From IMG/VR virus record IMGVR_UViG_3300045988_161943: a stretch of 34,046 bases of DNA; one strand, 5' to 3'. Below are positions 1 to 24,368 of this stretch, one piece after another. Origin of the DNA: a virus. Each line of letters begins with the position of its first letter. Within the stretch, counting starts at the first letter, position 1. The notes beneath the pieces are model-generated. The model saw only the letters and a program-made list of their open reading frames with translations, was not told the DNA's origin and did not search any database. A program made the translations under genes and the position numbers.

Positions 1-55
1 CCCTCAGTCGGACATGATAGATAACATCCCTTGGCATCGCGCAGGTTGGCACCGC
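1..55. repeat. Terminal redundancy copy 1 (identical to 33992-34046). This is an assembly overlap of a circular or circularly permuted genome.
   Basis: ccctcagtcggacatgatagataacatcccttggcatcgcgcaggttggcaccgc is present at both ends. Confidence 0.9.
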
Positions 56-578
56 GCAGGTAGGCACCGCACAGGTAGGCACCGCACAGGTTGGCACCGC
101 GCAGGTCGGCATCGCGCAGGTAGGCACCGCACAGGTAGGCACCGCACAGGTCGGCACCGCGCAGGTCGGCATCGCACAGGTTGGCACCGCGCAGGTAGGC
201 ATCGCGCAGGTCGGCACCGCGCAGGTCGGCACCGCGCAGGTCGGCACCGCGCAGGTCGGCATCGTACAGGTCGGCATCGCACAGGTCGGCGCCGCGCAGG
301 TCGGCGCCGCGCAGGTCGGCATCGCGCAGGTCGGCACCGCGCAGGTCGGCATCGCGCAGGTCGGCATCGCGCAGGTCGGCATCGCGCAGGTTGGCACCGC
401 GCAGGTTGGCACCGCGCAGGTCGGCATCGCGCAGGTCGGCATCGCGCAGGTTGGCACCGCGCCTAATAGCTTCCAAAACCGTTTCGGTGATTGTGTTTCC
501 CTCTTTCGTGTATTCAAATACGACCGAACCCGTCCAACGGTTGCGGATTTCGATTTTAATCTGTTTCGTTGATTCCAT
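1..578 (-). CDS. Pentapeptide-repeat protein, N-terminal part (first 192 codons). The gene crosses the circular junction and continues 33991->33691, giving a 292-aa product.
   Basis: ATG at 578-576. My translation is MESTKQIKIEIRNRWTGSVVFEYTKEGNTITETVLEAIRR followed by 28 x [G/D]A[D/N/Y]L[R/C/Y]. There is no in-frame stop down to nt 1. The phase joins 33991 exactly (578+301=879 nt=293 codons). It is missing from the ORF track because it runs off the window edge. Confidence 0.85.
   Translation of the reverse strand, partial: MESTKQIKIEIRNRWTGSVVFEYTKEGNTITETVLEAIRRGANLRDADLRDADLRGANLRGANLRDADLRDADLRDADLRGADLRDADLRGADLRGADLCDADLYDADLRGADLRGADLRGADLRDAYLRGANLCDADLRGADLCGAYLCGAYLRDADLRGANLCGAYLCGAYLRGANLRDAKGCYLSCPTE
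39..458. repeat. Tandem array of 28 x 15-nt units (gc[g/a]caggt[c/t/a]ggc[a/g][c/t]c). This is the coding repeat of the pentapeptide protein.
   Basis: I counted the units one by one: 28 consecutive in-register 15-mers with variation confined to about 4 positions. Confidence 0.95.
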
Positions 579-951
579 TGTGGTAAATTTGTTTATCCGG
601 ATTCATGTATTGATTTGCGGCAGCAATAGCATCTTCGAGCGTGCGAACTACAACATACTTGTTCCCCGCAGTCTCAAAGGACTCTTGCCATCTTCTCTGT
701 ACGGCACTCTGACGACTGCCCTTTCCCTGTGTCTTGAACTCCAAACCGAGCGATCCATACTTGCCCCTCGGAACGAGCAGAAGCAAATCCGCAGCACCGG
801 CCGTCATACCTTCGGCCTTCATGATTGCGGCTTCGGTCTTACTCCGGAGTCCGCCGTTCGGAACACTCGTCAGACATAGTGCATAGGACGGATATTGCAT
901 CCGGAACCAGCGGACGAACGACTGTTGTATACGAGATTCAACGTGCCTCAT
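556..951 (-). CDS. VRR-NUC family (PD-(D/E)xK) nuclease.
   Basis: Contains ...VPNGG...GMTAGAADLLLLVPRGKYGSLGLEFKTQGKGSRQSAVQRRW..., which fits the VRR-NUC pattern (G.pDl..., ExK, Q..w). I chose the start at 951 because of the ATGA overlap with the stop of the upstream gene (948-951 = tcat). Confidence 0.75.
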   Translation of the reverse strand: MRHVESRIQQSFVRWFRMQYPSYALCLTSVPNGGLRSKTEAAIMKAEGMTAGAADLLLLVPRGKYGSLGLEFKTQGKGSRQSAVQRRWQESFETAGNKYVVVRTLEDAIAAANQYMNPDKQIYHNGINETD

Positions 952-1535
952 TTGCGCAGACTGTTTCCATTGAACGCAACACGATAGCACAGGTATTTAA
1001 TACGGTCATATATCCGGTCACCATAGCGTTCCTTGATGCCTTCACCCGACAGATTTGAGGAAGCTATAACCATCCGATCGGGGTTATCCTGCACCTTGTT
1101 CACGATCTCGACTACCACATTCCGGCGTGTACCGAATTCGACGCGATCCACCTCTACACCTATATCGTCCAATGCGATGAACTTGCGTTTTAATACCTCG
1201 TCGATACATACGTCCTGCGCTCCGCAGTCCACGACCGTAACGATTCGATTAGCGAACTTGCGCAACAGCATGGGAATGGCGTAGCGGGTTATCAGGGATT
1301 TTCCGCGTCCGCAATTACCGAACAGCAAAAGTCCCTTACCGTTGCTATCCGACAACCACGCTGCAACCTTGTCGTATTCGGGAAGCCATACCAATCGTTC
1401 TCCCATTGCCGACAGCACAGTAACCAGCGCGTTTTTCAATTCCGTCCGCGCATCGGGTATCCGAAACCGGAAGCGTGCGCATGGAGCCGGATTACCCTCA
1501 GTTTGTAGTTGTTTGAGTATTTCTTCGTAAGACAT
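948..1535 (-). CDS. DnaC/IstB-like AAA+ ATPase (helicase loader).
   Basis: Walker A GNCGRGKS and Walker B FIALDDIG. It sits directly after the replication initiator gene. Confidence 0.75.
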   Translation of the reverse strand: MSYEEILKQLQTEGNPAPCARFRFRIPDARTELKNALVTVLSAMGERLVWLPEYDKVAAWLSDSNGKGLLLFGNCGRGKSLITRYAIPMLLRKFANRIVTVVDCGAQDVCIDEVLKRKFIALDDIGVEVDRVEFGTRRNVVVEIVNKVQDNPDRMVIASSNLSGEGIKERYGDRIYDRIKYLCYRVAFNGNSLRK

Positions 1536-1537
1536 AT

Positions 1538-2413
1538 TCAGAATTCATCATAATGTTGAGTCGGTTTTGCATGGTAGGTCGTAGCCGGATGCCGAGTGTT
1601 CGAACGGGGCAACGACGTTTCATTACGCCGACGCGCCCAATTCAGAAATGTCAGATAGGCCGAACGATTGCGTTTCAGCAAGGGTTCGTAGTTATGCATC
1701 GCGCGCAATAGGTCGCAGATGAAGTCAAGAGCATAAGCCTCTTTTAAAGCCGAGAATTGCGCCTCGGAAAAAGGCTCTTTCATTTTCGCGACTCGCGGTG
1801 CATTTTCCGAAATCCATTGTTGAAACTCCAAGAACTCGCGGGAGGGGGTGCCGCGGAACTGGGGGAGGGTGTTGGAGGAGTCAGTTACCTCTGCCTTCTC
1901 CGAGAAGGGCGGTAGTACGACTATCTCCCCATTAGGGGGATTATAGGGGGTAATATTATTCTTGTCTAGTCTATCTTCTATACAAGAAGTATCGCCTTCG
2001 TTTTGGCTTCGTTTTTGGCTTCGTTTTTGGCTCCGTTTTTGGCTCCGTTTTTGGCTCCGTTTTTGGCTCATGTTTTGGCTCATATTTAAGCCAATTGAGC
2101 CATTTGAAACGATGCCTGATTCGGGATTCGGTTCTTCAACGAATGAAAAAGCTGTGCGGTTCCCCTTCCCGCGTCCTCCCGTTATGATATGTAACAGACC
2201 CGCTTGCTCCAATCGGTTTTTTGCTCTCGAAATTGCATTGCGTGACGCCCCTACATTCTCGGACAGCCTTCTGTCGGAATGCGTGAAGCTATTCGGCCAG
2301 CCTAACCGATTCGCTTGTTCTACAAGGTAGAAGTAAAGCCTCGATTCACAGCAGCCAAATTGCCACGTTGCATCCAATTGCCAAAATTTGCGTATCAGGT
2401 CTATATAGCTCAT
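1538..2413 (-). CDS. Replication initiator / replisome organiser: N-terminal winged-HTH, an SQKR-repeat linker and a DnaD-like C-terminus.
   Basis: MSYIDLIRKFWQLD...NVGASRNAISRAKNRLEQAGLLHI (HTH). The start at 2413 is supported by an ATGA overlap (2410-2413). The ORF-track start at 2500 would overlap the upstream gene by 90 nt. Confidence 0.7.
   Translation of the reverse strand: MSYIDLIRKFWQLDATWQFGCCESRLYFYLVEQANRLGWPNSFTHSDRRLSENVGASRNAISRAKNRLEQAGLLHIITGGRGKGNRTAFSFVEEPNPESGIVSNGSIGLNMSQNMSQKRSQKRSQKRSQKRSQKRSQNEGDTSCIEDRLDKNNITPYNPPNGEIVVLPPFSEKAEVTDSSNTLPQFRGTPSREFLEFQQWISENAPRVAKMKEPFSEAQFSALKEAYALDFICDLLRAMHNYEPLLKRNRSAYLTFLNWARRRNETSLPRSNTRHPATTYHAKPTQHYDEF
1994..2088. repeat. About 8 tandem 12-nt units (ggct[t/c]cgttttt and degenerate ends) inside the initiator gene. 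These are candidate origin iterons.
   Basis: Direct reading gives gccttcgtttt / ggcttcgttttt x2 / ggctccgttttt x3 / ggctcatgtttt / ggctcatattta. An AT-rich stretch at about 1941-1990 lies next to it. Confidence 0.8.
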
Positions 2414-2778
2414 AATCGCATCCTCTCTTTCTCGAAACTTATCATCGTGCGAAGGTTGTCGCATTGGTGCTTGCACGCCGCATTGATCCGATCCAGCCAC
2501 TTTTCAAGGGCATTCAGCTCGGAAGACGCACTGCCGATCAGTTTGTTCGCAAGCGACGGGGAAAGGCTGAGAATAGTCTCTTTCTCGTCGTGAAACAGCT
2601 TGGCCACAGCTGCATCGCGCATTCCGACCACCTCGCTCAGCAACGCCCCGCTGCGAGCATAATATACACCCAGTTGATCCAGCTGCCCCACCATCGAATC
2701 GATGTCGGAAAAAGTCGTACATTCAAGAAGATTCTGGATGTCTCGCGCCTCCCTGCGTATCTGTTCGATCCTTGTCAT
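2410..2778 (-). CDS. Hypothetical protein (122 aa).
   Basis: Intact ORF in the operon, with its stop coupled (ATGA) to the initiator gene. Confidence 0.6.
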   Translation of the reverse strand: MTRIEQIRREARDIQNLLECTTFSDIDSMVGQLDQLGVYYARSGALLSEVVGMRDAAVAKLFHDEKETILSLSPSLANKLIGSASSELNALEKWLDRINAACKHQCDNLRTMISFEKERMRL

Positions 2779-2929
2779 GACGTTTGTTTATTTTCTTCAA
2801 TAACAACCTTCCGCGGCGTAACGCATCCAATTCCTTTGCAGTCAGCAACGTATGCCCGCGGATGCGGGACAGGACGCGGAGGATGCGGAGCGCTTCCCGC
2901 GCCTCCGCATCGGTAATCCGCATATCCAT
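2723..2929 (-). CDS. Hypothetical small protein (68 aa).
   Basis: The ORF starts 3 nt after the stop of the upstream gene. It overlaps the next gene by 56 nt, so the call is uncertain. Confidence 0.4.
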   Translation of the reverse strand: MDMRITDAEAREALRILRVLSRIRGHTLLTAKELDALRRGRLLLKKINKRHDKDRTDTQGGARHPESS

Positions 2930-2931
2930 CG

Positions 2932-3228
2932 TCAGAAGGGAAGATTATCCGTATTATCCGCTACGGGCAAATCGGAGACTTGATCCGGCGTAGGTTCCGC
3001 AGGACGGAAGATAACTGACTTGCCTCGGCCGACATACGTGCGCGCGTCTTTTCGTTCGCGTTCCTCTTTGCTCTGACGGATGAATACGCAGTGCGTATTC
3101 TCGTACTGATCCGGCTGGCGAAGCTCCGAAACGCATATCGAAATGTCCTTCTTGCCGTTTTCGGCGACGAAAATTTTGTCTCTGGGAATATCGCTCACGC
3201 AGAGCGATACATTGATTAAATCTGCCAT
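2932..3228 (-). CDS. Putative small ssDNA-binding protein with an SSB-type C-terminal tip.
   Basis: It ends ...VADNTDNLPF, resembling the acidic D-D-D-I-P-F tip of bacterial SSB. It is located between recombination and replication genes. Confidence 0.45.
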   Translation of the reverse strand: MADLINVSLCVSDIPRDKIFVAENGKKDISICVSELRQPDQYENTHCVFIRQSKEERERKDARTYVGRGKSVIFRPAEPTPDQVSDLPVADNTDNLPF

Positions 3229-3230
3229 TG

Positions 3231-3689
3231 CTACCGTTTTTTGAAGGTTACTTTAAGTGTCGTCTTGCTGCTTCGCGCAGGAGGATAGAAAATTTCGCCC
3301 GTGGCGGGATCCGTCAGGCCGGAGGCCGGCAACGCCCGCAATATCTTCTCCTTCTCCTTGATGTCGGCCATGACCGCATCACGCATTTTGTACAGGTCGT
3401 CCAAAGCCTGGCAATTACAGCCCGAGTAGTCGTACTTGACGCCGGCCTCCACCTCTTCGATCGTACAGTCCGAGGATGTTTTCCCGTGTCCGTATTTAGC
3501 CAGTTCGCGCAACGTAATGTCGCGCACCTCTTCGGACTTCTTGAACAGCTCGATCGCCTTCTCCATGCGGGATATATTCTCGTAAGCGACGAGCGGATCG
3601 ACGTCTCCGCGGGTAACGGCGTCGACGGCGAGCTTCGCCAGCTCCGTGGGGCTGCTCGTCTCGCGTATCAATACAGGTTGTGTGTTCAT
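3231..3689 (-). CDS. Hypothetical protein (152 aa), in the recombination module.
   Basis: Intact ORF, with an ATGA overlap (3686-3689) with the Rad52-like gene. Confidence 0.6.
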   Translation of the reverse strand: MNTQPVLIRETSSPTELAKLAVDAVTRGDVDPLVAYENISRMEKAIELFKKSEEVRDITLRELAKYGHGKTSSDCTIEEVEAGVKYDYSGCNCQALDDLYKMRDAVMADIKEKEKILRALPASGLTDPATGEIFYPPARSSKTTLKVTFKKR

Positions 3690-4360
3690 ATTTTCTGCTG
3701 TTTACTGTTTAGATATTCGTCGTAAAATTTGGCGAAGACTACCGCCGTCATAGCGTCCGCATCGTAAGTGCGACGAAGGAAGGCGATGACATCGAATTTC
3801 GTCGGGTCTTTGACCGTCGTACTGCCCTTGTACGCCCAGCGCATGAACTGATCGCGCAAGACCGGATCGCTCAGCATATCGGCCGTGATCCGTTTCTTCG
3901 GAGCTGCCTGCACGGCTGCGGCAGCCGGTATCGGGTCGGGAGCAGCCGGCAGGCGTTGCACGGAGCTCTGAGGTGGCGCCCCCGCGCCGGTCTGTCTGCC
4001 CTTGAATACCTCGGCTCCGATACCCAACCAGGAACAAACCTTCGTCAGCGCATCCGTGGTCGCTCCCTTGCAGGCGTCGCCCAGATCGGCGTTATCGTTG
4101 CCGCCAAAACACTCGTAATAGATGCCGTATTCAGGTATCGAAAAACGTAGCTTGACGACGACCATGCGCTCGGAACGTTCGACGATCTCCGTCTCCACAC
4201 GCCATGAGCCTACGCCGAAAACCTCGTTGAGCCGTTCCGTTACATAAATCGACTTGATAGACGACAGGAACTTCTTCGTCGGATGCTGCGAGACGGCTTC
4301 ATCGGGAAGACGTCGATCCAATGCCGCCTTCTGTTCGGGGGTGATAGTTCGTGTTTTCAT
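3686..4360 (-). CDS. Rad52/Rad22-family single-strand annealing protein.
   Basis: Contains ...ECFGGNDNADLGDACKGATTDALTKVCSWLGIGAEVF..., which matches the conserved Rad52-type motif (..AeSDAlKR...fGiG..ly). Confidence 0.75.
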   Translation of the reverse strand: MKTRTITPEQKAALDRRLPDEAVSQHPTKKFLSSIKSIYVTERLNEVFGVGSWRVETEIVERSERMVVVKLRFSIPEYGIYYECFGGNDNADLGDACKGATTDALTKVCSWLGIGAEVFKGRQTGAGAPPQSSVQRLPAAPDPIPAAAAVQAAPKKRITADMLSDPVLRDQFMRWAYKGSTTVKDPTKFDVIAFLRRTYDADAMTAVVFAKFYDEYLNSKQQKI

Positions 4361-4363
4361 AGC

Positions 4364-4531
4364 CTACTCCTCCTCGACTATTCGATGCGTGAACTTCTTC
4401 GCATCGAGATGGCGCATCATGTACGCGATCTCTTTGCGTATCTCGTGCGTCCGCAACTTGCGGCTCCAACTCCCCGACGCTACAATATTCGTAGGACGGG
4501 CGATCTCGTAGATTTCGATTCTCGTTTTCAT
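4364..4531 (-). CDS. Small hypothetical protein (55 aa), not in the ORF track.
   Basis: My translation is MKTRIEIYEIARPTNIVASGSWSRKLRTHEIRKEIAYMMRHLDAKKFTHRIVEEE*. It fills the gap between 4360 and 4546 without overlaps, unlike the listed 88-aa ORF 4299..4565. Confidence 0.5.
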   Translation of the reverse strand: MKTRIEIYEIARPTNIVASGSWSRKLRTHEIRKEIAYMMRHLDAKKFTHRIVEEE

Positions 4532-4545
4532 GTGTGACAGATTGG

Positions 4546-4965
4546 TTAGTTGAGTTGCTTTTCAAGGATTATTGCATAGTCCGGATATTCTCGGCCATAT
4601 TGGTCATATACCACGCGAACGTATACCCTGTCGCCCGTGTATTCGGCGTAGCGCTCCACGCTGCCGTCGTCGTGGCTGCCGCCGATACTCGATTCGTATT
4701 CCGCGTAGAAATCGACCGAAGCCGTCAGACCTCTATATTCAACCTCGCAGGTTCCGGATTCCAGCCCGAGATCATGGGTGATCGCTTCGTTAATCTGTCT
4801 GGCGAACTCTTGCAGTTCGGAAGGAACGAGATGTATTTTCGGTTCCTCGATACCGCAGACCACCACAATCGGCTCGTCTTTCGACTTCGTGTGCAGGTCA
4901 TACCCGTAACGGGCCGGTACACTCAAACTCGGATAAACCGCGTATTCTTCTTTTGGCGTTTTCAT
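4546..4965 (-). CDS. Hypothetical protein (139 aa).
   Basis: Intact ORF with protein-like composition. Confidence 0.6.
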   Translation of the reverse strand: MKTPKEEYAVYPSLSVPARYGYDLHTKSKDEPIVVVCGIEEPKIHLVPSELQEFARQINEAITHDLGLESGTCEVEYRGLTASVDFYAEYESSIGGSHDDGSVERYAEYTGDRVYVRVVYDQYGREYPDYAIILEKQLN

Positions 4966-4971
4966 TCCCTC

Positions 4972-5598
4972 TTAGAATTTTGCATGTTGACGATTGTAGA
5001 TTCTCCGCATGGAGTTCATCAGATCGGGGAACGTCCGGATATACCCCATATCGACCGAGAAAGCCAGTTTGCGTTGCAGGTCGTCCAACGCCCGAAGCTG
5101 ATTCGGCGATGCCGTGTTCCGGATGTCGCGTTCATGCTTGTTGAAGACGATCCAGTTCAAACCCCGCGCAACCTGAGAATAATCCACATCCGGAAGCGCG
5201 GCGATCGACCGTGCAAGTACGTTGTAGTTGTCGCCCGCATGATGCCGGTACTCGATCAGCTGGTCGTAAACGAATTTCACGACTTTAACCTCGAAGCGGG
5301 GATTGAGCCGCATCGCAAACTTCACGAACAGGTACGGGTGCATCCATGTACCGCCGTTGTATTTGCCGCGTGTTTTTAAATATGCCAAATTTGGCACCTT
5401 TAAATTTTCCTCCTCCATCAGCGCCTCGATGAAATCTTTGGTGTTCTGATTTTCAAAGAAGTCCTGTATTCGTTTGTTGCTGTTCTTGGCTTTGTTCCAT
5501 TGCGCAAGCAACGACGTCGCGTTGAACATGCCGTCTCTCGTGCGTTGGTATACCTCGAATTTACCCAGCGGGCGGGTCATGATGACATTGCTTTTCAT
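4972..5598 (-). CDS. KilA-N domain DNA-binding protein.
   Basis: Contains ...FNATSLLAQWNK...KTRGKYNGGTWMHPYLFVKFAMRLNPRF..., typical of KilA-N. Confidence 0.65.
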   Translation of the reverse strand: MKSNVIMTRPLGKFEVYQRTRDGMFNATSLLAQWNKAKNSNKRIQDFFENQNTKDFIEALMEEENLKVPNLAYLKTRGKYNGGTWMHPYLFVKFAMRLNPRFEVKVVKFVYDQLIEYRHHAGDNYNVLARSIAALPDVDYSQVARGLNWIVFNKHERDIRNTASPNQLRALDDLQRKLAFSVDMGYIRTFPDLMNSMRRIYNRQHAKF

Positions 5599-5714
5599 CG
5601 TTCGTTGAAGAATTCGTTAAACTTCCGTTCGAAATATGCTCTGTGCGCGGCCGCAAACCCGTAGGCGGCCAGGATCGCACACGAGAAAAGAACAAGGATC
5701 ACAAGCTCGGCCAT
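5595..5714 (-). CDS. Small single-pass membrane protein (39 aa), not in the ORF track.
   Basis: MAELVILVLFSCAILAAYGFAAAHRAYFERKFNEFFNER*. Its stop overlaps the KilA-N start as ATGA (5595-5598). Confidence 0.45.
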   Translation of the reverse strand: MAELVILVLFSCAILAAYGFAAAHRAYFERKFNEFFNER

Positions 5715-5866
5715 AACATTTGCGGTTCGGAGAGACGTTTGCGCTCTCGATAGATGAACAGATCGTGTTTGCGACGCTGAGTATGTACTCGTTTATACCA
5801 CATGCACCAGAAATAACCGGCCACTCTCTCCCAGAGAGGCGCGGGCTTCAATTCGAATGAATCCAT
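5699..5866 (-). CDS. Small hypothetical protein (55 aa), not in the ORF track.
   Basis: MDSFELKPAPLWERVAGYFWCMWYKRVHTQRRKHDLFIYRERKRLSEPQMLWPSL*. It starts 2 nt after the stop of 5869..6138. Confidence 0.4.
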   Translation of the reverse strand: MDSFELKPAPLWERVAGYFWCMWYKRVHTQRRKHDLFIYRERKRLSEPQMLWPSL

Positions 5867-5868
5867 GA

Positions 5869-6138
5869 CTATCGGTTTTTGTAAAGTTTTTCCAGTGATG
5901 ACAACTGATCCTTAACGCTATGCACCGAGGCAAAACCTCCGGTAATAACGTTGTCGCACCAACGAAAGACGATACTTGCTGCACAGCGGTAGAAATGCGC
6001 AGCAGAGAGCGGATTAGATGTAGTTCCGTGAAGAATGCCGATAAGGTCGGCTTTCGTGAGATGACTGTACGGGTAAGGTACGGATGTAGCCCCGCTACTG
6101 TTCTTCGCGGGTCGGCTACTTTTAACTTGGTCTCGCAT
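5869..6138 (-). CDS. Hypothetical protein (89 aa).
   Basis: Intact ORF downstream of the MTase-like gene. Confidence 0.5.
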   Translation of the reverse strand: MRDQVKSSRPAKNSSGATSVPYPYSHLTKADLIGILHGTTSNPLSAAHFYRCAASIVFRWCDNVITGGFASVHSVKDQLSSLEKLYKNR

Positions 6139-6189
6139 TGTCAGTTAAAAGTTTGTATGTATAGGGCAATAAAAAAGGCGTTGCCCCTA

Positions 6190-6762
6190 TCAGTTTGCGA
6201 GACCGACACGACTACCGTAGTAGAAGTGGACAAAGGGCAACGCTTTATTACAAGCGTTAATAAGCACATAACGGGCTTTGGCCACATTTTCGAGAACATC
6301 CCCATGGAACACTTCTCCCATCATACCGCGAATAGCCATATTCAACAGTAGAATTGGAATCGATCTATCTGAGAGTTCCCAGCATGTGAATATACAGGTG
6401 TGCGGTTTGAAACGCCAAGGCAATTGCTTCGATGCCAGCTCCCACCAATACTGAATAATGAGCCCTCCTGTCCCCGCAGTAGGTTCGTGGATAACACCTT
6501 CGCGCGCACCGGTAAGTTGCGTTTCAAGCATAGAGACCTCCCGAGGTGTGAAATCTTGACCCTTCTTCCGCCGCTCAGATAACTCTTCTTCGTAGACCTC
6601 TTGAAACCAATCGTAGGAAAGATCGCCTGCATGGCAGCGGATAAGTTCGCGAAATACGTCGTCGCGGACTTCCTGATCCCCGAATAGCAGGCTCATGATA
6701 CATTCCGGTAAGGTACGGATATCGTGCGTACCGAAAACCGTGAGAAGTTCGTCTTTTTTCAT
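6190..6762 (-). CDS. N6-adenine DNA-methyltransferase-like protein, N-terminal half only. No NPPY/F catalytic motif is visible.
   Basis: GQDFTPREVSMLE (motif X-like), VIHEPTAGTGGLII (motif I), and ELSDRSIPILLLNMAIRGMMGEVFHGDVLE. It ends ...RYVLINACNKALPFVHFYYGSRVGLAN* where D-x-V-x-x-NPP[YF] would be expected. The start at 6762 (MKKDELL) avoids the tRNA. Confidence 0.6.
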   Translation of the reverse strand: MKKDELLTVFGTHDIRTLPECIMSLLFGDQEVRDDVFRELIRCHAGDLSYDWFQEVYEEELSERRKKGQDFTPREVSMLETQLTGAREGVIHEPTAGTGGLIIQYWWELASKQLPWRFKPHTCIFTCWELSDRSIPILLLNMAIRGMMGEVFHGDVLENVAKARYVLINACNKALPFVHFYYGSRVGLAN

Positions 6763-6780
6763 TTGTTTTTTTTTATTTTG

Positions 6781-6851
6781 TCGCGCCGGCAGGATTCGAA
6801 CCTGCGACTTCACCTCCAAAGGGTGACGTGTTGCCCCTACACCACGGCGCA
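6781..6851 (-). tRNA. tRNA-Gln (anticodon UUG), 71 nt, no encoded CCA.
   Basis: Hand-folded: acceptor UGCGCCG/CGGCGCG (U1-G72 wobble), D arm GUG-UAGGGGCAA-CAC, anticodon arm UCACC-CUUUGGA-GGUGA, T arm GCAGG-UUCGAAU-CCUGC, discriminator A. Confidence 0.85.
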
Positions 6852-7082
6852 CTGGATTCATTTGTCCCGGTGGTCCTCGCCGCTCGTGTCGTCGCAGCTT
6901 CGGAGCCTGTGCCGGTTTGTTGCGCTTCGGCTATTCGCCGTCGCGGGGCTGTCTCTTCGAGTCTTGCCCACGACCCGCCGATTTGGGTATTATCGGCCTA
7001 CCCGGTACTCTTTCTGCCCTTGCGGGCTGGGGTGATTTTGCCAGAGCACCAAACCCCTCACCTCTGCGGGTGGCTATCGTTG
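6852..7082 (-). ncRNA. Candidate structured RNA, copy 1 (231-nt GC-rich spacer between tRNAs).
   Basis: No credible ORF. Local helices include GCCC-GCAA-GGGC (GNRA loop on the minus strand; plus 7016-7027), GCCGAT/ATCGGC (6977-6982/6992-6997), interleaved GGGTA/TACCC (6985-6989/6999-7003), and CGGC/GCCG plus GCG/CGC (6922-6944). Confidence 0.45.
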
Positions 7083-7153
7083 TGGTGTAGGCAGGATTCG
7101 AACCTGCGACTTCACCTCCAAAGGGTGACGTGTTGCCCCTACACCACGGCGCA
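7083..7153 (-). pseudogene. Chimeric tRNA copy: tRNA-Gln(UUG) body joined to the 3' acceptor strand of the upstream tRNA-like gene.
   Basis: Identical to tRNA-Gln from the 5' end through the T arm. The 3' strand is CUACACC-A, which cannot pair with the 5' UGCGCCG. Confidence 0.6.
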
Positions 7154-7384
7154 CTGGATTCATTTGTCCCGGTGGTCCTCGCCGCTCGTGTCGTCGCAGC
7201 TTCGGAGCCTGTGCCGGTTTGTTGCGCTTCGGCTATTCGCCGTCGCGGGGCTGTCTCTTCGAGTCTTGCCCACGACCCGCCGATTTGGGTATTATCGGCC
7301 TACCCGGTACTCTTTCTGCCCTTGCGGGCTGGGGTGATTTTGCCAGAGCACCAAACCCCTCACCTCTGCGGGTGGCTATCGTTG
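7154..7384 (-). ncRNA. Candidate structured RNA, copy 2 (identical to 6852-7082).
   Basis: Part of the 302-bp repeat. Confidence 0.45.
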
Positions 7385-7487
7385 TGGTGTAGGCAGGATT
7401 CGAACCTGCAACGAGCCGTTAGTCGCGAGTCGGCTCTCGTACCGATGACGTCTATCCTTCGTGCGTCTACCATTCCGCCACTACACC
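7385..7487 (-). tRNA. Non-canonical 103-nt tRNA-like gene (type-II-like). The anticodon is unresolved.
   Basis: It has a perfect 7-bp acceptor GGUGUAG/CUACACC, a Leu/Tyr-like D arm GCG-GAAUGGUAGA-CGC and a canonical T arm GCAGG-UUCGAAU-CCUGC. The anticodon region only forms an imperfect stem (CGAAGG/UCAUCG, loop AUAGACG). The 33-nt variable region has a 6-bp stem GAGCCG/CGGCUC and a 12-nt loop. Confidence 0.55.
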
Positions 7488-7671
7488 ATTTGCCGGTCTT
7501 TCCCGGCCGTCGTCCTGCTGCGAGCCTCACGGAGGACAGCGAGGAATACAATAATAAATATGAAAAGATACAGCACATTAAAGGCGCGCAAACCTTTGCC
7601 AAGCCCCGAAGCCGCAAAACACCCTTCTCTCAAAAACTCTAATCATGAACACCTCCGGCTTCGGGGCGCTC

Positions 7672-7947
7672 TCATTTCAATCCTGCCCCGTCGATCTTCT
7701 CGGCTTTCAGGAGCGCTTCGACTTCGAGCCGGCTGAACAGTATCGCAGAGTTTTTAGCCGCTCCGGCCTTTATTCCCTGGATATTCTTCCGCTTGATATG
7801 ATAGTCGAGCCAGTCGTTGGGATAGCTCTCGTACAATTTCCGACGTGTCATCATGTCCGACTTCGGAGCATTACGACGGCACACGGCCAAAGCCACGAGA
7901 TCGGCCGATTCGATCAGCGCATTCTGTATATCTCGGATGTTCATCAT
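7672..7947 (-). CDS. Putative DNA-binding (excisionase-like) protein, 91 aa. It is the first gene of the leftward early operon.
   Basis: ...IQGIKAGAAKNSAILFSRLEVEALL... resembles Xis/HTH_17-type C-terminal halves. Position next to the lysogeny region supports the call. Confidence 0.4.
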   Translation of the reverse strand: MMNIRDIQNALIESADLVALAVCRRNAPKSDMMTRRKLYESYPNDWLDYHIKRKNIQGIKAGAAKNSAILFSRLEVEALLKAEKIDGAGLK

Positions 7948-8058
7948 TCACAAAATTTTGCATTATGACAAAGATTCAAATTCGCGTCAGAATACGCATT
8001 CGCGCAACTGTAAGAACTTCGGTTCGAACGGTATACCGATAGCTTCTGACCGTGATAT

Positions 8059-8075
8059 GGCGGGCAATTTCCGCC
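8059..8075 (-). terminator. Hairpin GGCGG-N7-CCGCC downstream of the 8104..8337 gene.
   Basis: ggcgg 8059-8063 pairs with ccgcc 8071-8075. There is no clear U-tract. Confidence 0.3.
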
Positions 8076-8103
8076 CTCTCTAAATTTCTCCTGTCATCCG
8101 TTG

Positions 8104-8337
8104 TTATTCACGCACCCACCTGACTTTGGTGTTCTCGAATCCCCCGCGTTCACGAGCCATCCGGCGGATGCGATCCGGCTGTTCGCCATAGGTAGGATAT
8201 GTGAGATTCAATGCGTTATTCACAGTGTCAACCGTACACCCCAGCTCTGCGGCGATCTCCTTCTTTATCGCTGGCGCAACATCGATGAATCGGATCTTCT
8301 TTTTGGTCAGTTTGTTTGTAATCTCTTGATTCTTCAT
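8104..8337 (-). CDS. Small HTH regulator (77 aa), leftward arm of the switch.
   Basis: MKNQEITNKL...KKEIAAELGCTVDTVNNAL (HTH). The start at 8337 is preferred over the track start at 8406, which lies inside the AT-rich promoter region. Confidence 0.6.
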   Translation of the reverse strand: MKNQEITNKLTKKKIRFIDVAPAIKKEIAAELGCTVDTVNNALNLTYPTYGEQPDRIRRMARERGGFENTKVRWVRE

Positions 8338-8443
8338 TATATTTGCATCTAATATTATTCGTTCGGTTATCGAAACGGTTACCGTTCTATGCACTTGACA
8401 ATGCAAATATATAGCATTTTATAACATAAAGCAAATATTTTTG
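8338..8443. promoter_or_regulatory. Divergent/overlapping promoter-operator region.
   Basis: TAnnTTTG boxes are at 8338-8345 (plus sense, TATATTTG), 8411-8404 (minus sense, TATATTTG) and 8436-8443 (plus sense, TATTTTTG). There is an inverted repeat TATATTTGCAT (8338-8348) / ATGCAAATATA (8401-8411), plus AGCAAATATT at 8430-8439. Direct repeats CGGTTATCG / CGGTTACCG lie between them. Confidence 0.5.
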
Positions 8444-8479
8444 CTATAAAAATACACATTGAAGTTAAAAAATGCACAC

Positions 8480-8659
8480 ATGTCTGATTTTGAAGTATTT
8501 ATAAAAAAGAACAATCTGAAAAAGAGTGCAATAGCACAATATATTGGGGTTTCTAATGGATTTATAAAGATATATGAGTTAATTGGAATAGAGGTGCCAG
8601 ATAGTATACAAAATGCAAATACAATCACAAAAGTAAAAACCATTTTTCATCAAGGATGA
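8480..8659 (+). CDS. Small XRE/Cro-like HTH regulator (59 aa), strongly AT-rich.
   Basis: MSDFEVFIKKNNLKKSAIAQYIGVSNGFI... The ATG at 8480 is in frame with the track's TTG start at 8459. Confidence 0.55.
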   Translation: MSDFEVFIKKNNLKKSAIAQYIGVSNGFIKIYELIGIEVPDSIQNANTITKVKTIFHQG

Positions 8660-8720
8660 TAACGCTTGTCTCGACTCTCCGGCAGGCTTGTCCCTTGCGA
8701 TTGCATTTTAACAATACCTC

Positions 8721-9986
8721 ATGGAACTGCAACCCATCCAAAGCAAGATATACGAAATCCGAGGCCAGCGGGTGATGCTGGACTTCGATTTGGCGGAACT
8801 CTACCAAGTGGAGACCCGAACACTCAAACAGGCGGTACGACGCAATATTGAGCGTTTCGAAGGCGACGATTTTATGTTTGAACTCTCGGATAACGAGTAT
8901 AACGCATTGAAAGACAGAATAAGGTCACAAAATGTGATCTTAGAAATCGACGAACTCGTCGCACGCATCAAATCAGGATTGAAAGGCGGAGAGCGATTCC
9001 GGCTCGATTTCATAGCGTATATGAGGCAGGAAGCGGCGCGGATGAATTCCGGTACGGCATCGATTTACATGACAGCCCTCAACGCGCTGAGACGATACAT
9101 TGGCCGCGATACGCTCGACATCGGCGAGATCACGGCACCGTTCATCAAAGGATTCGTGCAATTCATCGAATCGGAGCCTTCGCAACGAGGCGCCAACCGA
9201 AAGCAGAAAGGTGAAACTGCAACCAAAAACAAGGGCAACAGGGCACTGTCTCTGTATATTTCGCGCATCAAAACCATCTATAACCGCGCGAAGGAAGAGT
9301 TCAACGATGAAGAACTCGGACAAATGAATATTCTGGGCAACCCTTTCAGAAACTTGCGCCTCGAAACACCCGCGCCGACGGCCAAACGAGCCATCTCCGC
9401 GGAGTCGATACAGCAGATAATCGACTTGCCGCCACTCGCCAACGAACGCGCTCGGATGGCGCGGGATTGCTTCCTCCTGTCGTTCGCACTGATGGGGATG
9501 AACAGCGCCGATCTGCTGACCTGCCCGCCGGCCAGGAAGGACGAAATCGTGTATTTCCGGCAAAAAACCGCATCCCGCCGCACGGACCGTGCAGAAATGC
9601 ACGTTCGGATAGAGCCGTGCGTCAGCCCTTTGATCGCTCGCTATTCGGATAAGACGGGGAAACGGCTGCTTCACTTCTACCTCCGCTACAAAGATCGCGT
9701 GTCATTCAACAAAGCGATCAACAAAGGCCTGAAAGATGTCGGCGAGGCGATAGGCGTCGATGGCCTGACGTTCTACGCTGCGCGGCACTCCTGGGCAACC
9801 ATAGCGCGGACTCCCCGAGAGGAGGGCGGAGCCGGACTGGACAAATACGTGATTCATGAAGCGTTGAATCACGTTGACACATCCATGAAAGTCACCGATA
9901 TTTACCTCGTGAAAAACTGGCGTGTCATTTTCGACGCCAACAAAGCCGTAATGAATCTTTTCGATTGGAGCGGAATCGGGAAATAA
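8721..9986 (+). CDS. int: Tyrosine recombinase (integrase) with an N-terminal partial ORF6N domain replacing the usual arm-binding domain.
   Basis: The N-terminus MELQPIQSKIYEIRGQRVMLDFDLAELYQVETRTLKQAVRRNIERFEGDDFMFEL is an ORF6N signature. A SAM-like domain follows (TASIYMTALNALRRYIG...FIKGFVQFI). Catalytic motifs are YFRQKT, ARHSWAT, HEALNH and TDIYL. Confidence 0.85.
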   Translation: MELQPIQSKIYEIRGQRVMLDFDLAELYQVETRTLKQAVRRNIERFEGDDFMFELSDNEYNALKDRIRSQNVILEIDELVARIKSGLKGGERFRLDFIAYMRQEAARMNSGTASIYMTALNALRRYIGRDTLDIGEITAPFIKGFVQFIESEPSQRGANRKQKGETATKNKGNRALSLYISRIKTIYNRAKEEFNDEELGQMNILGNPFRNLRLETPAPTAKRAISAESIQQIIDLPPLANERARMARDCFLLSFALMGMNSADLLTCPPARKDEIVYFRQKTASRRTDRAEMHVRIEPCVSPLIARYSDKTGKRLLHFYLRYKDRVSFNKAINKGLKDVGEAIGVDGLTFYAARHSWATIARTPREEGGAGLDKYVIHEALNHVDTSMKVTDIYLVKNWRVIFDANKAVMNLFDWSGIGK

Positions 9987-23105: not shown

Positions 23106-24368
23106 CTAAGGCTCGGCAGCCGGTTTCTGCAAGGCGGCGATAATGGTCGCGAACGCGCCTTTGACGAACGCCCCCTGATCGACCGATGCGAAGTACGAGT
23201 GCAGACGCTCCTCGCAGATGACCGTGAAGAGATTCTTCTGGAAGTCGTCGTCGACCCACCCGAATTCGACGCGAATGCCTTTGTACGGGCGAACGTTCCA
23301 TTTGCTCGTATCGGCAACGAGGAAATCGCCGGCCTTGACGTAGGTCGATTCCACGATCTCCACCCCGCGGATGAGCCGGAACAGCTCGTCCGAGATGTAG
23401 TGACCCGTCGAATCCTTCGTCAGGTCGATGGAGGCCCGATCCGAAGGGTTGAGCATCACCACGTCGGGATAGAAGTTCAGGTTCCGCATCTGGAGGATCG
23501 CTGCGCGGATCGCATCGGCCTTGTTCGCCATTTCGACCGTCCCGTCGAGCGCGGTGGCCGTATAGGTGGCAGCAGCCGTAAAGATGCCTTTGAGATTCAC
23601 GCCCGTGCCGTCACCGGTGAGCAGCTGTTTCGTGCGTTCCTGAACGAGCGACGTGCGCAGCATGTTGTCGATCTCCGACTGCATATAGTCGAAATCGTCG
23701 CGCATCTCGTAGGAGATTTTGGCCGATACGGCCACTTTCTTCGCCGTCGACGTCTCAGGGACATACGACCAGTCCATAGCGGGCTTCAAGGCCCCCTCGG
23801 CGATGAATGCAGGGGCGCCGTTGCCGGGCTTGCGATCCACCCACGTGATATTGGGCGAGTTGGTCGAGCCCTTGAACAATCGTTCTACGACGCGCGTGTC
23901 TTCGCTCGGCGCGTAATGGATAGTGCGGTCTACTTCGGTGTTGAGCGCTGTAACCGCCGCGGTATTGGCCGCCACGGTGATCGTCGTAGCCGCCGCTTTG
24001 ATCTCCAGTTCGAGCGCCGTATTGCGTTTCTCCGCGAAAGCGCGTTTCGCCTCGTCGCTCGAAAGGAACGCCTTGATCTGCTCGCGGATCGTGCGGCCCT
24101 TGCCGGCTCCGCCGCTCATCGAACGGCGGATCTCGCTCCCCTGCTCCTTGAGAGCCTTCTCGATCTCCGCGATCTTCTCGGCCGACACGCCCAGTTTCCC
24201 GAGCGACGATTTTACCGACTCGACGATCTCTTCCTCCGATTTGATCCCCTCGGCCAGCATTTCGAGCTGGTCGTTGATGTGCTTGCCGAGCAATTCCATG
24301 CCCTTGCGATCCACGTCCGAGAACTCCCCGCTGTCGGGCAGTTCGAATTTCTTGAATTTGAATGCCAT
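23106..24368 (-). CDS. Major capsid protein, HK97 fold, with an N-terminal delta (scaffolding) domain.
   Basis: 420 aa, immediately after the prohead protease. It has a coiled-coil N-terminus of about 100 aa and then capsid-like sequence. Confidence 0.8.
   Translation of the reverse strand: MAFKFKKFELPDSGEFSDVDRKGMELLGKHINDQLEMLAEGIKSEEEIVESVKSSLGKLGVSAEKIAEIEKALKEQGSEIRRSMSGGAGKGRTIREQIKAFLSSDEAKRAFAEKRNTALELEIKAAATTITVAANTAAVTALNTEVDRTIHYAPSEDTRVVERLFKGSTNSPNITWVDRKPGNGAPAFIAEGALKPAMDWSYVPETSTAKKVAVSAKISYEMRDDFDYMQSEIDNMLRTSLVQERTKQLLTGDGTGVNLKGIFTAAATYTATALDGTVEMANKADAIRAAILQMRNLNFYPDVVMLNPSDRASIDLTKDSTGHYISDELFRLIRGVEIVESTYVKAGDFLVADTSKWNVRPYKGIRVEFGWVDDDFQKNLFTVICEERLHSYFASVDQGAFVKGAFATIIAALQKPAAEP

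What the first reader, a model, noticed from the sequence alone, without database searches (positions are those of the whole stretch)
6852..7082. A 231-nt GC-rich, structure-rich non-coding spacer between phage tRNA genes may be a novel ncRNA
Between the tRNA genes lies a segment with no credible ORF. It is visibly higher in GC than its flanks and has many short helices when read on the tRNA (minus) strand.
- A GCCC-GCAA-GGGC hairpin with a GNRA tetraloop (plus coordinates 7016-7027).
- A 6-bp helix GCCGAU/AUCGGC (6977-6982/6992-6997), interleaved with a 5-bp GGGUA/UACCC pairing (6985-6989/6999-7003). These form either an H-type pseudoknot or alternative folds.
- A bipartite helix GCG..CGGC-GAAUA-GCCG..CGC (6922-6944).
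- GGCU-CCGA-AGCU.

The element is flanked by tRNAs on both sides, so it should be co-transcribed and released by RNase P / RNase Z processing. It is present twice (also at 7154-7384).

Large ornate phage RNAs such as GOLLD and ROOL are known to sit next to tRNA genes. This element is much smaller and I cannot match it to any family by eye.
Basis: partly seen in the sequence, partly recalled or inferred. Interest (0 to 1): 0.7.

Follow-up and report, generated by a model that had tools for sequence, protein, structure and literature searches.

The report
Conserved structured RNA beside phage tRNAs
The 231-base spacer is a real, conserved folded RNA of unknown function found in over 100 human-gut phage contigs, usually just after a tRNA-like handle; its second copy here is only a private tandem duplication.

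Summary
The spacer (6852-7082, minus strand) is not a chance GC-rich stretch. It belongs to a modular RNA family with 112 distinct copies in IMG/VR and human-gut metagenome contigs.

The family has a conserved ~76-nt 5' domain, a swappable central module and a conserved 3' hairpin. Across 34 distinct 5'-domain types, 14 base pairs are 98.5% paired on the tRNA strand and 91.2% on the opposite strand (39 G.U against 4 A.C cells). Six pairs change on both sides.

Rfam 15 has no match, and no ORF is conserved. The unit boundaries are sharp. Upstream is usually a tRNA-like acceptor/T-arm handle (80 of 112 copies). Downstream is either tRNA-Gln(UUG) directly or hairpins with a terminator-like stem.

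The "second copy" is a 302-bp tandem duplication through an 18-nt shared T-arm. It is private to this contig and created a chimeric tRNA.

My reading is a discrete early-operon ncRNA released by tRNA-processing enzymes. Expression, processing and function remain untested.

The parts
6852..7082 (-). Structured RNA element, copy 1. This is the predicted mature RNA of 231 nt, running from CAACGAUAGCC to GGGACAAAUGAAUCCAG.
   Evidence: Family member with sharp, recurring boundaries. No Rfam match.
7154..7384 (-). Structured RNA element, copy 2, identical to copy 1.
   Evidence: 0 differences in 231 nt. All related contigs carry one copy.
7001..7079 (-). Conserved 5' domain, the family-defining part. 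Copy 2 lies at 7303-7381.
   Evidence: Covariance model R1 scores 85 bits at E = 6e-17. On A2, 97.4% of cells pair against 93.1% in shuffles (0 of 500) and at most 51% when partners are slid.
7059..7072 (-). H1 hairpin CACC-CGCAGA-GGUG.
   Evidence: The outer pair C-G becomes A-U and the next pair A-U becomes G.U or G-C across subtypes. Loop sequence and length vary.
7004..7050 (-). H3 helix GGUGCUCU/AGAGUACC enclosing the H4 GNRA hairpin GCCC-GCAA-GGGC (7016-7027).
   Evidence: H3 has three pairs changed on both sides against GAUCGCU/AGCGAUC, plus several G.U-compatible single changes. H4 shows C-G to U-A and U.G, and its loop is GCAA or GAAA.
7029..7057 (-). Candidate pseudoknot between GGGG (7054-7057) and CCCC (7029-7032, inside the H3 loop).
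   Evidence: Both runs are invariant in all 34 types used for the pair counts, including subtypes F and G, which were not selected on them (L092, left out of those counts, reads GAGG). There is no covariation, and RNAalifold offers a distal alternative partner. Inferred only.
6977..7003 (-). Central H-type pseudoknot. S1 is GGGUA (6999-7003) with UACCC (6985-6989). S2 is GCCGAU (6992-6997) with AUCGGC (6977-6982).
   Evidence: S1 covaries: CGUUA/UAACG in L215, and CGUUA/UAGCG in L296 and in subtypes F and G. S2 is conserved. In other subtypes the whole module is replaced by unrelated hairpins.
6922..6944 (-). Bipartite hairpin GCG-A-CGGC-GAAUA-GCCG-AA-GCGC with the conserved AAUAGCCGAA motif.
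   Evidence: The outer CGC/GCG-type stem and the (G/A)AAUA loop are retained in all subtypes. The inner stem is only 2 bp in subtype B, so support is weak.
6867..6915 (-). 3' irregular hairpin of 14 bp: CCGG..GG-C-UCC..GCUGC-loop-GCGGC..GGA-CC.CCGG.
   Evidence: 99% of 420 cells pair. The variation is almost all G.U-compatible, with U-A to U.G to C-G at one pair and C-G to U-A in subtype F.
6780..6851 (-). tRNA-Gln(UUG), which directly abuts the 3' end of the element (the RNA's last 8 nt, GAAUCCAG, lie between GGGACAAAU and the tRNA); no CCA is encoded.
   Evidence: ARAGORN and Rfam at 62.5 bits. A tRNA-Gln(UUG) lies downstream on the same strand in every representative related locus.
7083..7153 (-). 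Chimeric tRNA. The 5' body comes from tRNA-Gln, and the T-arm and 3' acceptor strand come from the tRNA-like element. It is a by-product of the duplication.
   Evidence: The normal acceptor strands UGCGCCG and CUACACC cannot pair.
7385..7487 (-). tRNA-like element X. It has an acceptor stem, a Leu-type D arm and a T arm, with a 38-nt insert in place of the anticodon arm.
   Evidence: Rfam tRNA scores 42.7 bits and ARAGORN finds nothing. The middle is hypervariable among close relatives, giving total lengths of about 62, 103, 120 and 191 nt.
7488..7545 (-). Conserved 5' leader with two hairpins, GCCGG-GAAAGA-CCGGC and GUCCU...AGGAC.
   Evidence: Conserved in relatives. The first hairpin plus X-like element also occurs in Bacteroides phage BS-TP2.
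6788..7409 (.). Tandem duplication. 6788-7107 equals 7090-7409 (320 nt, 100% identical, period 302). The junction is the 18-nt T-arm GGCAGGATTCGAACCTGC shared by tRNA-Gln and X.
   Evidence: It is absent from all other copies.

Best explanation
The spacer is a gene for a discrete, structured non-coding RNA of a temperate gut phage.

Shown:
- It belongs to a conserved, modular RNA family.
- The helices are maintained by compensatory and G.U-compatible changes on the tRNA strand.
- The unit from (A)AUAGCC to GGGACAAAU has the same boundaries in many different genomic contexts.

Inferred:
- It is transcribed on the minus strand as part of the early operon: leader, tRNA-like X, element, tRNA-Gln, methyltransferase-like ORF.
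- RNase Z-type cleavage after the discriminator of the tRNA-like handle sets its 5' end. No CCA is encoded there.
- RNase P cleavage at the 5' end of tRNA-Gln sets its 3' end. In relatives a terminator-like stem does this instead.
- The result is an RNA of about 231 nt.

More speculative:
- The compact pseudoknotted 5' domain and the 3' hairpin act as a stable scaffold.
- The exchangeable central module is the working part, binding a protein or RNA partner in trans early in infection or in lysogeny. In this window that module is an H-type pseudoknot. In relatives it is one to three hairpins with a conserved GCCGYWACCAW loop.

The two copies in this window come from one recent unequal-crossover or slippage event, or from an assembly loop.
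For: Family:
- 21 close relatives were found first. Divergent subtypes followed.
- There are 112 distinct copies with context.

Structure:
- Covariance model R1 scores the window copies at 85 bits.
- On alignment A2, 97.4% of cells pair against 93.1% in shuffles (0 of 500), and the covariation score is 0.175 against 0.112 (0 of 500). Slid controls reach at most 51%.
- In 34 distinct 5'-domain types, 476 cells break down as 430 Watson-Crick, 39 G.U, 4 A.C and 3 other. That is 98.5% paired on the tRNA strand and 91.2% on the opposite strand. Six pairs change on both sides.
- The 3' hairpin is 99% paired.
- The central pseudoknot stem S1 covaries.
- Hairpins in the alternative central modules keep their loops while their stems covary.

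Not coding:
- Close variants differ by 1-2-nt indels, and some members have stops in all frames.

Not known:
- Rfam 15 gives nothing.

Processing context:
- A tRNA-like T-arm/acceptor handle lies upstream in 80 of 112 copies, in several unrelated versions. A covarying plain hairpin lies upstream in 23.
- Downstream, tRNA-Gln follows directly in 33 copies (the element's last 8 nt, GAAUCCAG, abut it), and hairpins plus a terminator-like stem follow in 62.
- The element is always on the same strand as the flanking genes.
- Neither X nor tRNA-Gln encodes CCA.
Against: - No expression or end-mapping data could be consulted.
- Single-sequence folding is not better than shuffles, with z = -1.6.
- The diversity comes from about seven subtypes of fairly closely related gut phages. 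The independent substitution events are therefore few, and most pairs never vary.
- Part of the apparent invariance was imposed by the search patterns. Subtypes F and G relax this.
- The GGGG/CCCC pseudoknot has no covariation.
- No partner protein is consistently encoded next to it. The HTH_39-like gene that follows it in most relatives is absent from this window.
- No complementary target was found.
- In most relatives the 3' side is not a tRNA, so tRNA-type release at both ends is specific to the window subtype.
Confidence: 0.55

Rival explanations
1. It is a cis-acting RNA element of the early operon rather than a free RNA. One option is a put- or EAR-like processive antiterminator that lets RNA polymerase read through the downstream terminator-like stems. 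Another is a 5' stability or processing module for the downstream transcript.
For: It lies in the early, same-strand operon directly upstream of strong hairpins and a terminator-like stem with a U-run in 62 of 112 copies. In the window, a terminator-like site follows the methyltransferase-like ORF at 6188-6174, ahead of further same-strand genes. The 5' domain is the most conserved part, whatever follows it.
Against: - The downstream neighbour is not constant: tRNA-Gln, an HTH_39-like gene, or no terminator stem at all, as in L099.
- In the window subtype, a tRNA sits between the element and the next gene. RNase P would cut the element off the nascent chain, and tethered antiterminators do not tolerate that (own knowledge of HK022 put).
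- The recurring tRNA-like handle upstream argues for making a defined free end.
- A Bacteroidetes-type promoter-like sequence can be read over the terminator stem, so the downstream genes may not depend on read-through (direct reading of the sequences; weak).
Confidence: 0.2
2. It is an RNase P-processed antisense immunity RNA, like P4 CI RNA or P1/P7 c4. It would pair with sites in its own operon to block early gene expression in the lysogen.
For: The phage is temperate, with an integrase at 8721-9986. The element lies between the lysogeny module and the early genes and is flanked by RNase P substrates. Related contigs carry c4-2 RNAs elsewhere.
Against: - No complementary stretch of 11 nt or more exists on the same strand in window 1-8700. 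The counts of 9- and 10-mers equal shuffle expectation: 2 against 2.1, and 7 against 7.2.
- Rfam c4 models do not hit the element.
- At 231 nt with multiple domains, it is far larger than the roughly 70-80-nt c4 and CI RNAs (own knowledge).
Confidence: 0.07
3. It is a spacer with no function of its own. It looks conserved because the phages are close relatives, and GC-rich sequence folds by itself.
For: The MFE z-scores are not significant. Window-type copies are 97-99% identical. Most pairs are invariant.
Against: - The unit survives with the same boundaries while its upstream partner, central module and downstream partner have all been exchanged.
- Changes on both sides preserve six pairs of the 5' domain, pairs of pseudoknot stem S1, and pairs of the 3' hairpin.
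- The 39 to 4 excess of G.U over A.C is not expected for neutral DNA.
Confidence: 0.06
4. It is a DNA-level site, such as a replication origin, an attP or recombination site, or a protein-binding array, rather than an RNA.
For: An integrase lies about 1.7 kb away. tRNA-related sequence is a common att target. Some relatives have repeated hairpin units in the central module (L101, L036). A recombination event happened here, namely the duplication.
Against: - The strand asymmetry of wobble pairs, 98.5% against 91.2% paired, fits RNA on one strand.
- The duplication junction is in the tRNA T-arm, not in the element.
- The element is found far from any integrase in other contigs, and always in the sense orientation of the operon.
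Confidence: 0.04
5. It encodes a small protein, possibly on the plus strand, where long open frames exist.
For: The plus strand is A-poor, so frames stay open across the element. With the duplication this gives ORF 6828-7337 of 169 aa.
Against: The open frame shifts between variants that differ by a 1-nt indel, such as L088 and L086. L215 and L296 have stops in all three plus-strand frames. The substitutions follow base-pairing rather than codon periodicity.
Confidence: 0.01

Closest known systems
Bacteriophage T4 RNAC and RNAD (species 1 and 2), small stable RNAs of the tRNA gene region
   Same: Both are phage-encoded small stable RNAs transcribed from a tRNA gene region. The review PMC3014915 says their biological roles are unknown. 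From my own knowledge, the T4 RNAs are matured together with the tRNAs. It is the same kind of object in the same kind of place.
   Different: No sequence or structure relationship was tested or is claimed. The T4 RNAs are shorter, about 120-140 nt from my own knowledge, and belong to a lytic enterobacterial phage. The present RNA is modular, pseudoknotted and found in temperate gut phages.
Functional tRNA-operon spacers of E. coli (3'ETS of glyW-cysT-leuZ, ITS of metZWV), which act as sRNA sponges
   Same: Both are segments between or after tRNA genes that are released by tRNA processing and have a function of their own. This rests on my own knowledge. Papers on the topic were retrieved but not read.
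   Different: The E. coli spacers are short, little-structured, Hfq-dependent pairing RNAs. This element is 231 nt and highly structured, and no pairing target was found.
RNase P-processed immunity RNAs of temperate phages (P4 CI RNA; P1/P7 c4, Rfam clan CL00128)
   Same: All are small RNAs cut out of an early or immunity transcript of a temperate phage by a tRNA-processing enzyme (own knowledge). c4-2 RNAs occur in related contigs.
   Different: The c4 models do not match the element. No complementary target sites exist. The element is three times larger.
Gammaherpesvirus 68 TMERs (viral tRNA-like element fused to a downstream small RNA, released by tRNase Z)
   Same: In both, a degenerate tRNA-like module placed directly upstream serves as a processing handle for the functional RNA behind it (own knowledge). 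Here, 80 of 112 copies have such a handle.
   Different: TMERs belong to a eukaryotic virus, use pol III promoters inside the tRNA-like part, and yield miRNA hairpins. For this phage the processing is only inferred.
GOLLD and ROOL large ornate RNAs
   Different: No Rfam hit to either model, assuming both are in Rfam 15. The element is 231 nt against roughly 500-800 nt, and the architecture differs.
HK022 put / Bacillus EAR processive-antitermination RNAs
   Same: Both are structured, pseudoknot-containing RNAs in the 5' part of an operon upstream of terminators (own knowledge).
   Different: No sequence or model match was found. A tRNA separates this element from downstream genes in the window. 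Antitermination was not tested.

Membership tests
Any Rfam 15 family (4227 models; presumed to include GOLLD, ROOL, the c4 clan, riboswitches and self-cleaving ribozymes) | Covariance-model score at or above the family's gathering threshold. | tested here: not met
   In the window and 12 related loci, only tRNA, Pistol and c4-2 hits were found, and all lay outside the element. At E <= 10 the only match inside the spacer is the L31 leader at 16 bits and E = 1.9.
tRNA (for the flanking genes) | Cloverleaf with acceptor, D, anticodon and T arms and a readable anticodon. | tested here: inconclusive
   6780-6851 meets it: tRNA-Gln UUG, 62.5 bits. 7385-7487 has acceptor, D and T arms but no anticodon arm; ARAGORN finds nothing and Rfam gives 42.7 bits. 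7083-7153 is a chimera with non-pairing acceptor strands.
The new family itself (5' domain model R1) | H1, H3 and H4 helices, the GGGG...CCCC runs and the (A)AUAGCC start, scored with a covariance model. | tested here: met
   Both window copies score 85 bits at E about 6e-17. No other copy exists in the window.
Cis-regulatory leader or riboswitch | Constant position in the 5' UTR of one gene family, with an expression platform. | tested here: not met
   The downstream neighbour is tRNA-Gln in 33 copies, hairpins and then an HTH_39-like ORF in 62, and something else in 17. No HTH_39 homologue exists in the window.
c4 / P4 CI-type antisense immunity RNA | Short loops complementary to target sites in the same operon. 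| tested here: not met
   No complementarity of 11 nt or more. The 9- and 10-mer counts equal shuffle expectation.
Protein-coding small ORF | A reading frame conserved across homologues. | tested here: not met
   Variants differ by 1-2-nt indels, the open frame shifts between them, and L215 and L296 have stops in all frames.
Processed tRNA-operon RNA (T4 RNAC/RNAD kind) | A discrete stable transcript with ends made by RNase P, RNase Z or related enzymes. | not testable with these tools
   Only the genomic arrangement could be examined. No RNA-seq data were available.

The most novel reading that the evidence does not exclude
The element and its relatives form a new class of phage RNA with two distinguishing traits. 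First, maturation is driven by degenerate, rapidly diversifying tRNA-like handles, a bacterial counterpart of the herpesvirus TMER arrangement. Second, a constant pseudoknotted scaffold presents an exchangeable central module that sets specificity. That module could be a decoy or guide aimed at a host factor such as a tRNA-targeting defence nuclease or a processing enzyme. The constant linkage to a phage tRNA-Gln(UUG) could then be functional.
Probability: 0.15. Interest if true: 0.75.

Novelty: new member of a known kind. Interest (0 to 1): 0.5.

Why it matters
Temperate phages of gut Bacteroidales-like hosts are abundant and poorly understood. Few of their non-coding RNAs have any comparative support.

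This work turns an eyeballed GC-rich spacer into a defined RNA family, with boundaries, a secondary-structure model, a covariance model and more than 100 examples. The family can now be searched for in metatranscriptomes and tested.

The arrangement "tRNA-like handle, structured RNA, tRNA" suggests that phages use the host tRNA-processing machinery to manufacture other RNAs. This is the same unanswered question posed by T4 RNAC and RNAD. The mix-and-match modules give a natural handle for finding the functional part.

It remains one more orphan structured RNA among thousands of candidates until expression and a phenotype are shown.

Tried and rejected
- **Single-sequence folding.** The z-scores were -1.6 and -1.2, which is uninformative.
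- **Rfam.** Searches at gathering and at E <= 10, on the window and on 12 related loci, gave nothing for the element.
- **BLAST against cultured phages and plasmids.** Only tRNA-like pieces matched. No cultured phage carries the element.
- **Methyltransferase neighbour as a route to distant loci.** The group at 53% identity has no tRNAs and no element.
- **Genome collection scan.** It returned 88 hits, of which 87 were chance matches and one was a real copy on a 10-kb MAG contig.
- **One viral scan was wasted.** I miscounted the spacer, using 6 N where 5 were needed.
- **CM alignment A2.** It keeps the window subtype's 8-bp H3 one position out of register. I re-aligned by hand in Python to get the true pair counts.
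- **Antisense-target search.** It was negative.
- **Conserved partner protein.** None was found. The HTH_39-like and coiled-coil genes that follow the element in relatives are absent from the window.
- **Weak R1 hits in L073-L079.** These 15-bit hits lie in coding sequence and are chance.
- **Simple terminator scan on L094.** It found nothing because the stem has a long interior. Folding shows the stem plus U-run.
- **Supplements of the IMG/VR structured-RNA catalogue.** They are not held, so overlap with an anonymous "DNAVirus_N" candidate could not be checked.
- **Pairing between the variable insert of tRNA-like X and the central module.** I rejected this idea, because the same element occurs with four different X forms.
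Full report
**1. The observation**

The window is a temperate, siphovirus-like phage. It has an HK97-type capsid (23106-24368), a large terminase (26386-27651), a tape measure protein (15053-17644) and an ORF6N-integrase fusion (8721-9986).

On the minus strand, the region around the finding reads in this order:
- a structured leader (7545-7488);
- a 103-nt tRNA-like element "X" (7487-7385);
- the spacer (7384-7154);
- a tRNA-like chimera (7153-7083);
- the spacer again (7082-6852);
- tRNA-Gln(UUG) (6851-6780);
- a short N6-methyltransferase-like ORF (6765-6190), followed by a terminator-like site.

The spacer has 61.5% GC against about 47% in its flanks. The two copies are identical. By itself the fold is not remarkable, with MFE z-scores of -1.63 and -1.16 on the two strands. 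Rfam 15 finds only the three tRNA-type hits in the region, even at E <= 10.

**2. The duplication**

The exact repeat is 6788-7107 = 7090-7409. It is 320 nt long, 100% identical, with a period of 302. Its ends fall in the 18-nt T-arm sequence GGCAGGATTCGAACCTGC, which tRNA-Gln and X share.

All related contigs carry the unit once, as X - spacer - tRNA-Gln. The second copy is therefore a private tandem duplication through this microhomology, or an assembly loop.

The "tRNA" at 7083-7153 is its junction product. It has the tRNA-Gln body with X's T-arm and 3' acceptor strand, and its normal acceptor strands cannot pair. "Present twice" is thus not evidence of function.

**3. A family**

An exact 21-mer from the spacer found 21 IMG/VR contigs with 97-99% identical spacers. 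Further work uncovered divergent relatives. These came from a methyltransferase-anchored search, degenerate patterns on IMG/VR, one metagenome scan and one scan with the central pseudoknot.

In all there are 112 distinct copies with context, nearly all from human-gut assemblies. Only one copy occurs among 185,579 species-representative genomes, on a 10-kb MAG contig. None occurs in cultured phages or plasmids. The nearest cultured phages are Bacteroides phages at about 35% terminase identity. The host is therefore probably a member of Bacteroidales, but it is unnamed.

**4. Anatomy**

The unit runs from (A)AUAGCC to GGGACAAAU, and its boundaries are the same in all contexts. It has three parts.

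*(a) A 5' domain of about 76 nt (window 7079-7001).*
- Hairpin H1.
- A GGGG run.
- Helix H3, which encloses a CCCC run.
- A small GNRA hairpin, H4.

*(b) A central module that has been exchanged several times.*
- Other subtypes have an unrelated 85-nt module. It has a hairpin whose loop GCCGYWACCAW is conserved while its stem differs (GUCGGA/UCCGAC, GAGAG/CUCUC, GGAAG/CUUCC).
- The longest versions reach 148-207 nt, with up to three such hairpins.

*(c) A 3' part.*
- A hairpin carrying AAUAGCCGAA.
- A 14-bp irregular hairpin.
- A second class of relatives (L099, L214) keeps the 5' domain but has a different 3' part.

**5. Evidence that the helices are real and that the RNA is the tRNA strand**

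A covariance model of the 5' domain (R1) scores both window copies at 85 bits. It finds no further copy in the window.

On the model-based alignment A2, 97.4% of 702 cells pair, against 93.1% in column shuffles (0 of 500 reach it). The covariation score is 0.175 against 0.112 (0 of 500). Sliding the partners gives at most 51%. A2 leaves the window subtype's 8-bp H3 one position out of register, so I re-aligned by hand.

In 34 distinct 5'-domain types, 14 nested pairs give 476 cells. These are 430 Watson-Crick, 39 G.U, 4 A.C and 3 other. That is 98.5% paired on the tRNA strand and 91.2% on the opposite strand.

Six pairs change on both sides:
- H1, outer pair: C-G to A-U.
- H1, second pair: A-U to G-C (one type), besides A-U to G.U.
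- H3: U-A to A-U.
- H3: G.U to U-A.
- H3: U-A to G-C.
- H4: C-G to U-A.

The H4 loop is GCAA or GAAA, as expected for a GNRA tetraloop.

The central pseudoknot stem S1 reads GGGUA/UACCC in the window. It reads CGUUA/UAACG in L215, and CGUUA/UAGCG in L296 and in subtypes F and G. S2 (GCCGAU/AUCGGC) stays constant. This supports the pseudoknot reading rather than alternative folds.

The 3' hairpin is 99% paired. Its changes are mostly G.U-compatible single substitutions. One pair runs through the series U-A, U.G, C-G, and subtype F shows a C-G to U-A change.

Several caveats apply:
- The subtypes are few, about seven, and related, so the independent events are limited.
- The shuffles ignore phylogeny.
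- GGGGUU, CUGGCAA and CAGAAAG were fixed by my search patterns for most sequences. Subtypes F and G were found through the central module instead. In them CUGGCAA and CAGAAAG vary slightly, while GGGG and CCCC do not.
- The GGGG/CCCC pseudoknot itself has no covariation, and RNAalifold proposes a distal partner. It is a hypothesis.

**6. Not coding**

Long open frames exist on the plus strand only because that strand is A-poor. The open frame shifts between variants differing by a 1-nt indel. L215 and L296 have stops in all frames.

**7. Context and what it implies**

The element is always in the sense orientation of the surrounding operon.

Upstream:
- 80 of 112 copies have a T-arm plus acceptor-type, tRNA-like handle. 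There are several unrelated versions.
- 23 copies have a plain hairpin whose stem covaries.

The handle in this window (X) has a 7-bp acceptor stem, a tRNA-Leu-like D arm and a T arm. Its middle is hypervariable among otherwise near-identical phages, giving total lengths of about 62, 103, 120 and 191 nt. An unannotated X-like element, with the same preceding hairpin but without the spacer element, sits in an intergenic region of Bacteroides phage BS-TP2.

Downstream:
- 33 copies abut tRNA-Gln(UUG) directly; the RNA's last 8 nt (GAAUCCAG) follow GGGACAAAU.
- 62 copies are followed by a conserved hairpin, a long stem with a U-run (L094 fold z = -2.6), and then an HTH_39-like small gene.
- In all representative loci a tRNA-Gln(UUG) follows within about 1.5 kb on the same strand.

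The window subtype therefore looks like a deletion that brought the element next to the tRNA. Neither X nor tRNA-Gln encodes CCA.

The simplest reading is that the element is made as a discrete RNA. Its 5' end would be set by RNase Z-type cleavage behind the handle. Its 3' end would be set by RNase P at tRNA-Gln, or by termination in the relatives. This is inferred from anatomy and established tRNA-processing rules. It is not shown.

**8. Function**

I found no antisense target in the window. No partner gene is constantly linked. No known RNA class matches.

My preferred model is a trans-acting, stable early RNA. A constant pseudoknotted scaffold would present an exchangeable module that binds a protein or RNA. 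Confidence is 0.55 for "discrete processed structured ncRNA" and much lower for any specific activity.

The main rival is a cis-acting operon element, either antitermination or stabilisation (0.2). Its position upstream of terminator-like stems favours it. The intervening tRNA in the window subtype and the inconstant downstream neighbour count against it. The remaining rivals are unlikely, for the reasons given in their entries:
- a c4/CI-like immunity RNA;
- a neutral spacer;
- a DNA-level site;
- a small ORF.

**9. Comparison with what is known**

The closest in kind are the T4 RNAC and RNAD RNAs. [quoted passage not shown] Other relatives in kind, named from my own knowledge, are:
- the functional tRNA-operon spacers of E. 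coli;
- the RNase P-processed immunity RNAs of P4 and P1;
- the herpesvirus TMERs.

The element is not a member of any Rfam family.

A 2023 catalogue lists 8495 anonymous candidate structured RNAs of 29-151 nt from IMG/VR (PMC10690425). Parts of this element may be among them, but the supplements are not held. Absolute novelty cannot therefore be claimed.

**10. Verdict**

"Present twice" is explained away, and "tRNAs on both sides" is qualified.

I rate it a new member of a known kind, namely orphan structured RNAs of phage tRNA regions. Interest is 0.5. It is well supported as a conserved structured element, and its modular build and tRNA-like handles are attractive. It has no expression data or function yet.

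Noticed in passing
window 7385-7487 (-); L001-L021; L297 2420-2530 (-): tRNA-like element X keeps its acceptor stem, Leu-type D arm and T arm. The region replacing the anticodon arm is hypervariable among near-identical phages, giving total lengths of about 62, 103, 120 and 191 nt. An unannotated homologue with the same preceding GAAAGA-loop hairpin lies between gp31 and gp32 of the cultured Bacteroides phage BS-TP2. It may be a processing handle, a scaffold for small inserts, or a decoy.
   Followed up: partly
window 6788-7409: A 302-bp tandem duplication through an 18-nt T-arm microhomology created a chimeric tRNA at 7083-7153. It is private to this contig among all copies seen. It could be real or an assembly loop.
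   Followed up: yes
window 6190-6765 (-); L036 3004-4560; L231 6576-8132: The ORF after tRNA-Gln matches only the N-terminal third of N6_Mtase (Pfam positions 3-117 of 311; phrog_1071). It is 191 aa here and 205 aa in relatives. There it is followed directly by an ORF of about 310 aa whose N-terminal sequence, by eye, looks like a phage-integrase SAM-like tyrosine recombinase (not scanned against Pfam), which the window lacks at that position. This may be a split or phase-variable methylase module.
   Followed up: no
window 8721-9986 (+): The integrase carries an N-terminal ORF6N (antirepressor-type) domain fused to the SAM-like and catalytic integrase domains. This is an unusual architecture.
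   Followed up: no
window 33-460 (+): A stretch of about 430 nt is 88-89% identical at the DNA level to pentapeptide-repeat genes of Salmonella P22-like and Edwardsiella phages. That is unexpected for a gut Bacteroidales-type phage. It may reflect the repetitive gene sequence or a transfer.
   Followed up: no
L101 12224-12288 (+), 8046-8116 (+); L098 496-568 (-): Related phage contigs carry a Pistol self-cleaving ribozyme (67 bits) and c4-2 antisense RNAs (60-63 bits) elsewhere. These phages are rich in non-coding RNAs.
   Followed up: no
L101, L103, L163 and L036 central modules (sequences; L036 2630-2830): The central module contains two or three tandem hairpins with different stems but the same loop, GCCGUUA(C/U)CA(A/U). 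L036 also contains the reverse complement of that loop. This pattern resembles repeated binding sites or kissing loops.
   Followed up: partly
L094 8225-8330 and equivalent positions in subtypes B and C: Downstream of the element, most relatives have a further conserved hairpin with loop motif GGYUUGA and covarying stems. After it comes a long terminator-like stem. The full-length RNA in those phages may therefore be about 400 nt.
   Followed up: partly
window 8350-8650: A sharp AT-rich trough (GC 0.27) lies between divergently oriented small genes next to the integrase. It is probably the lysis-lysogeny control region.
   Followed up: no
L231 6093-6178; L224 3859-3944: ARAGORN calls a tRNA-Ser with anticodon ACU, which is unusual, just upstream of tRNA-Gln in subtype C contigs. 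L094 has a tRNA call with a 4-base anticodon.
   Followed up: no
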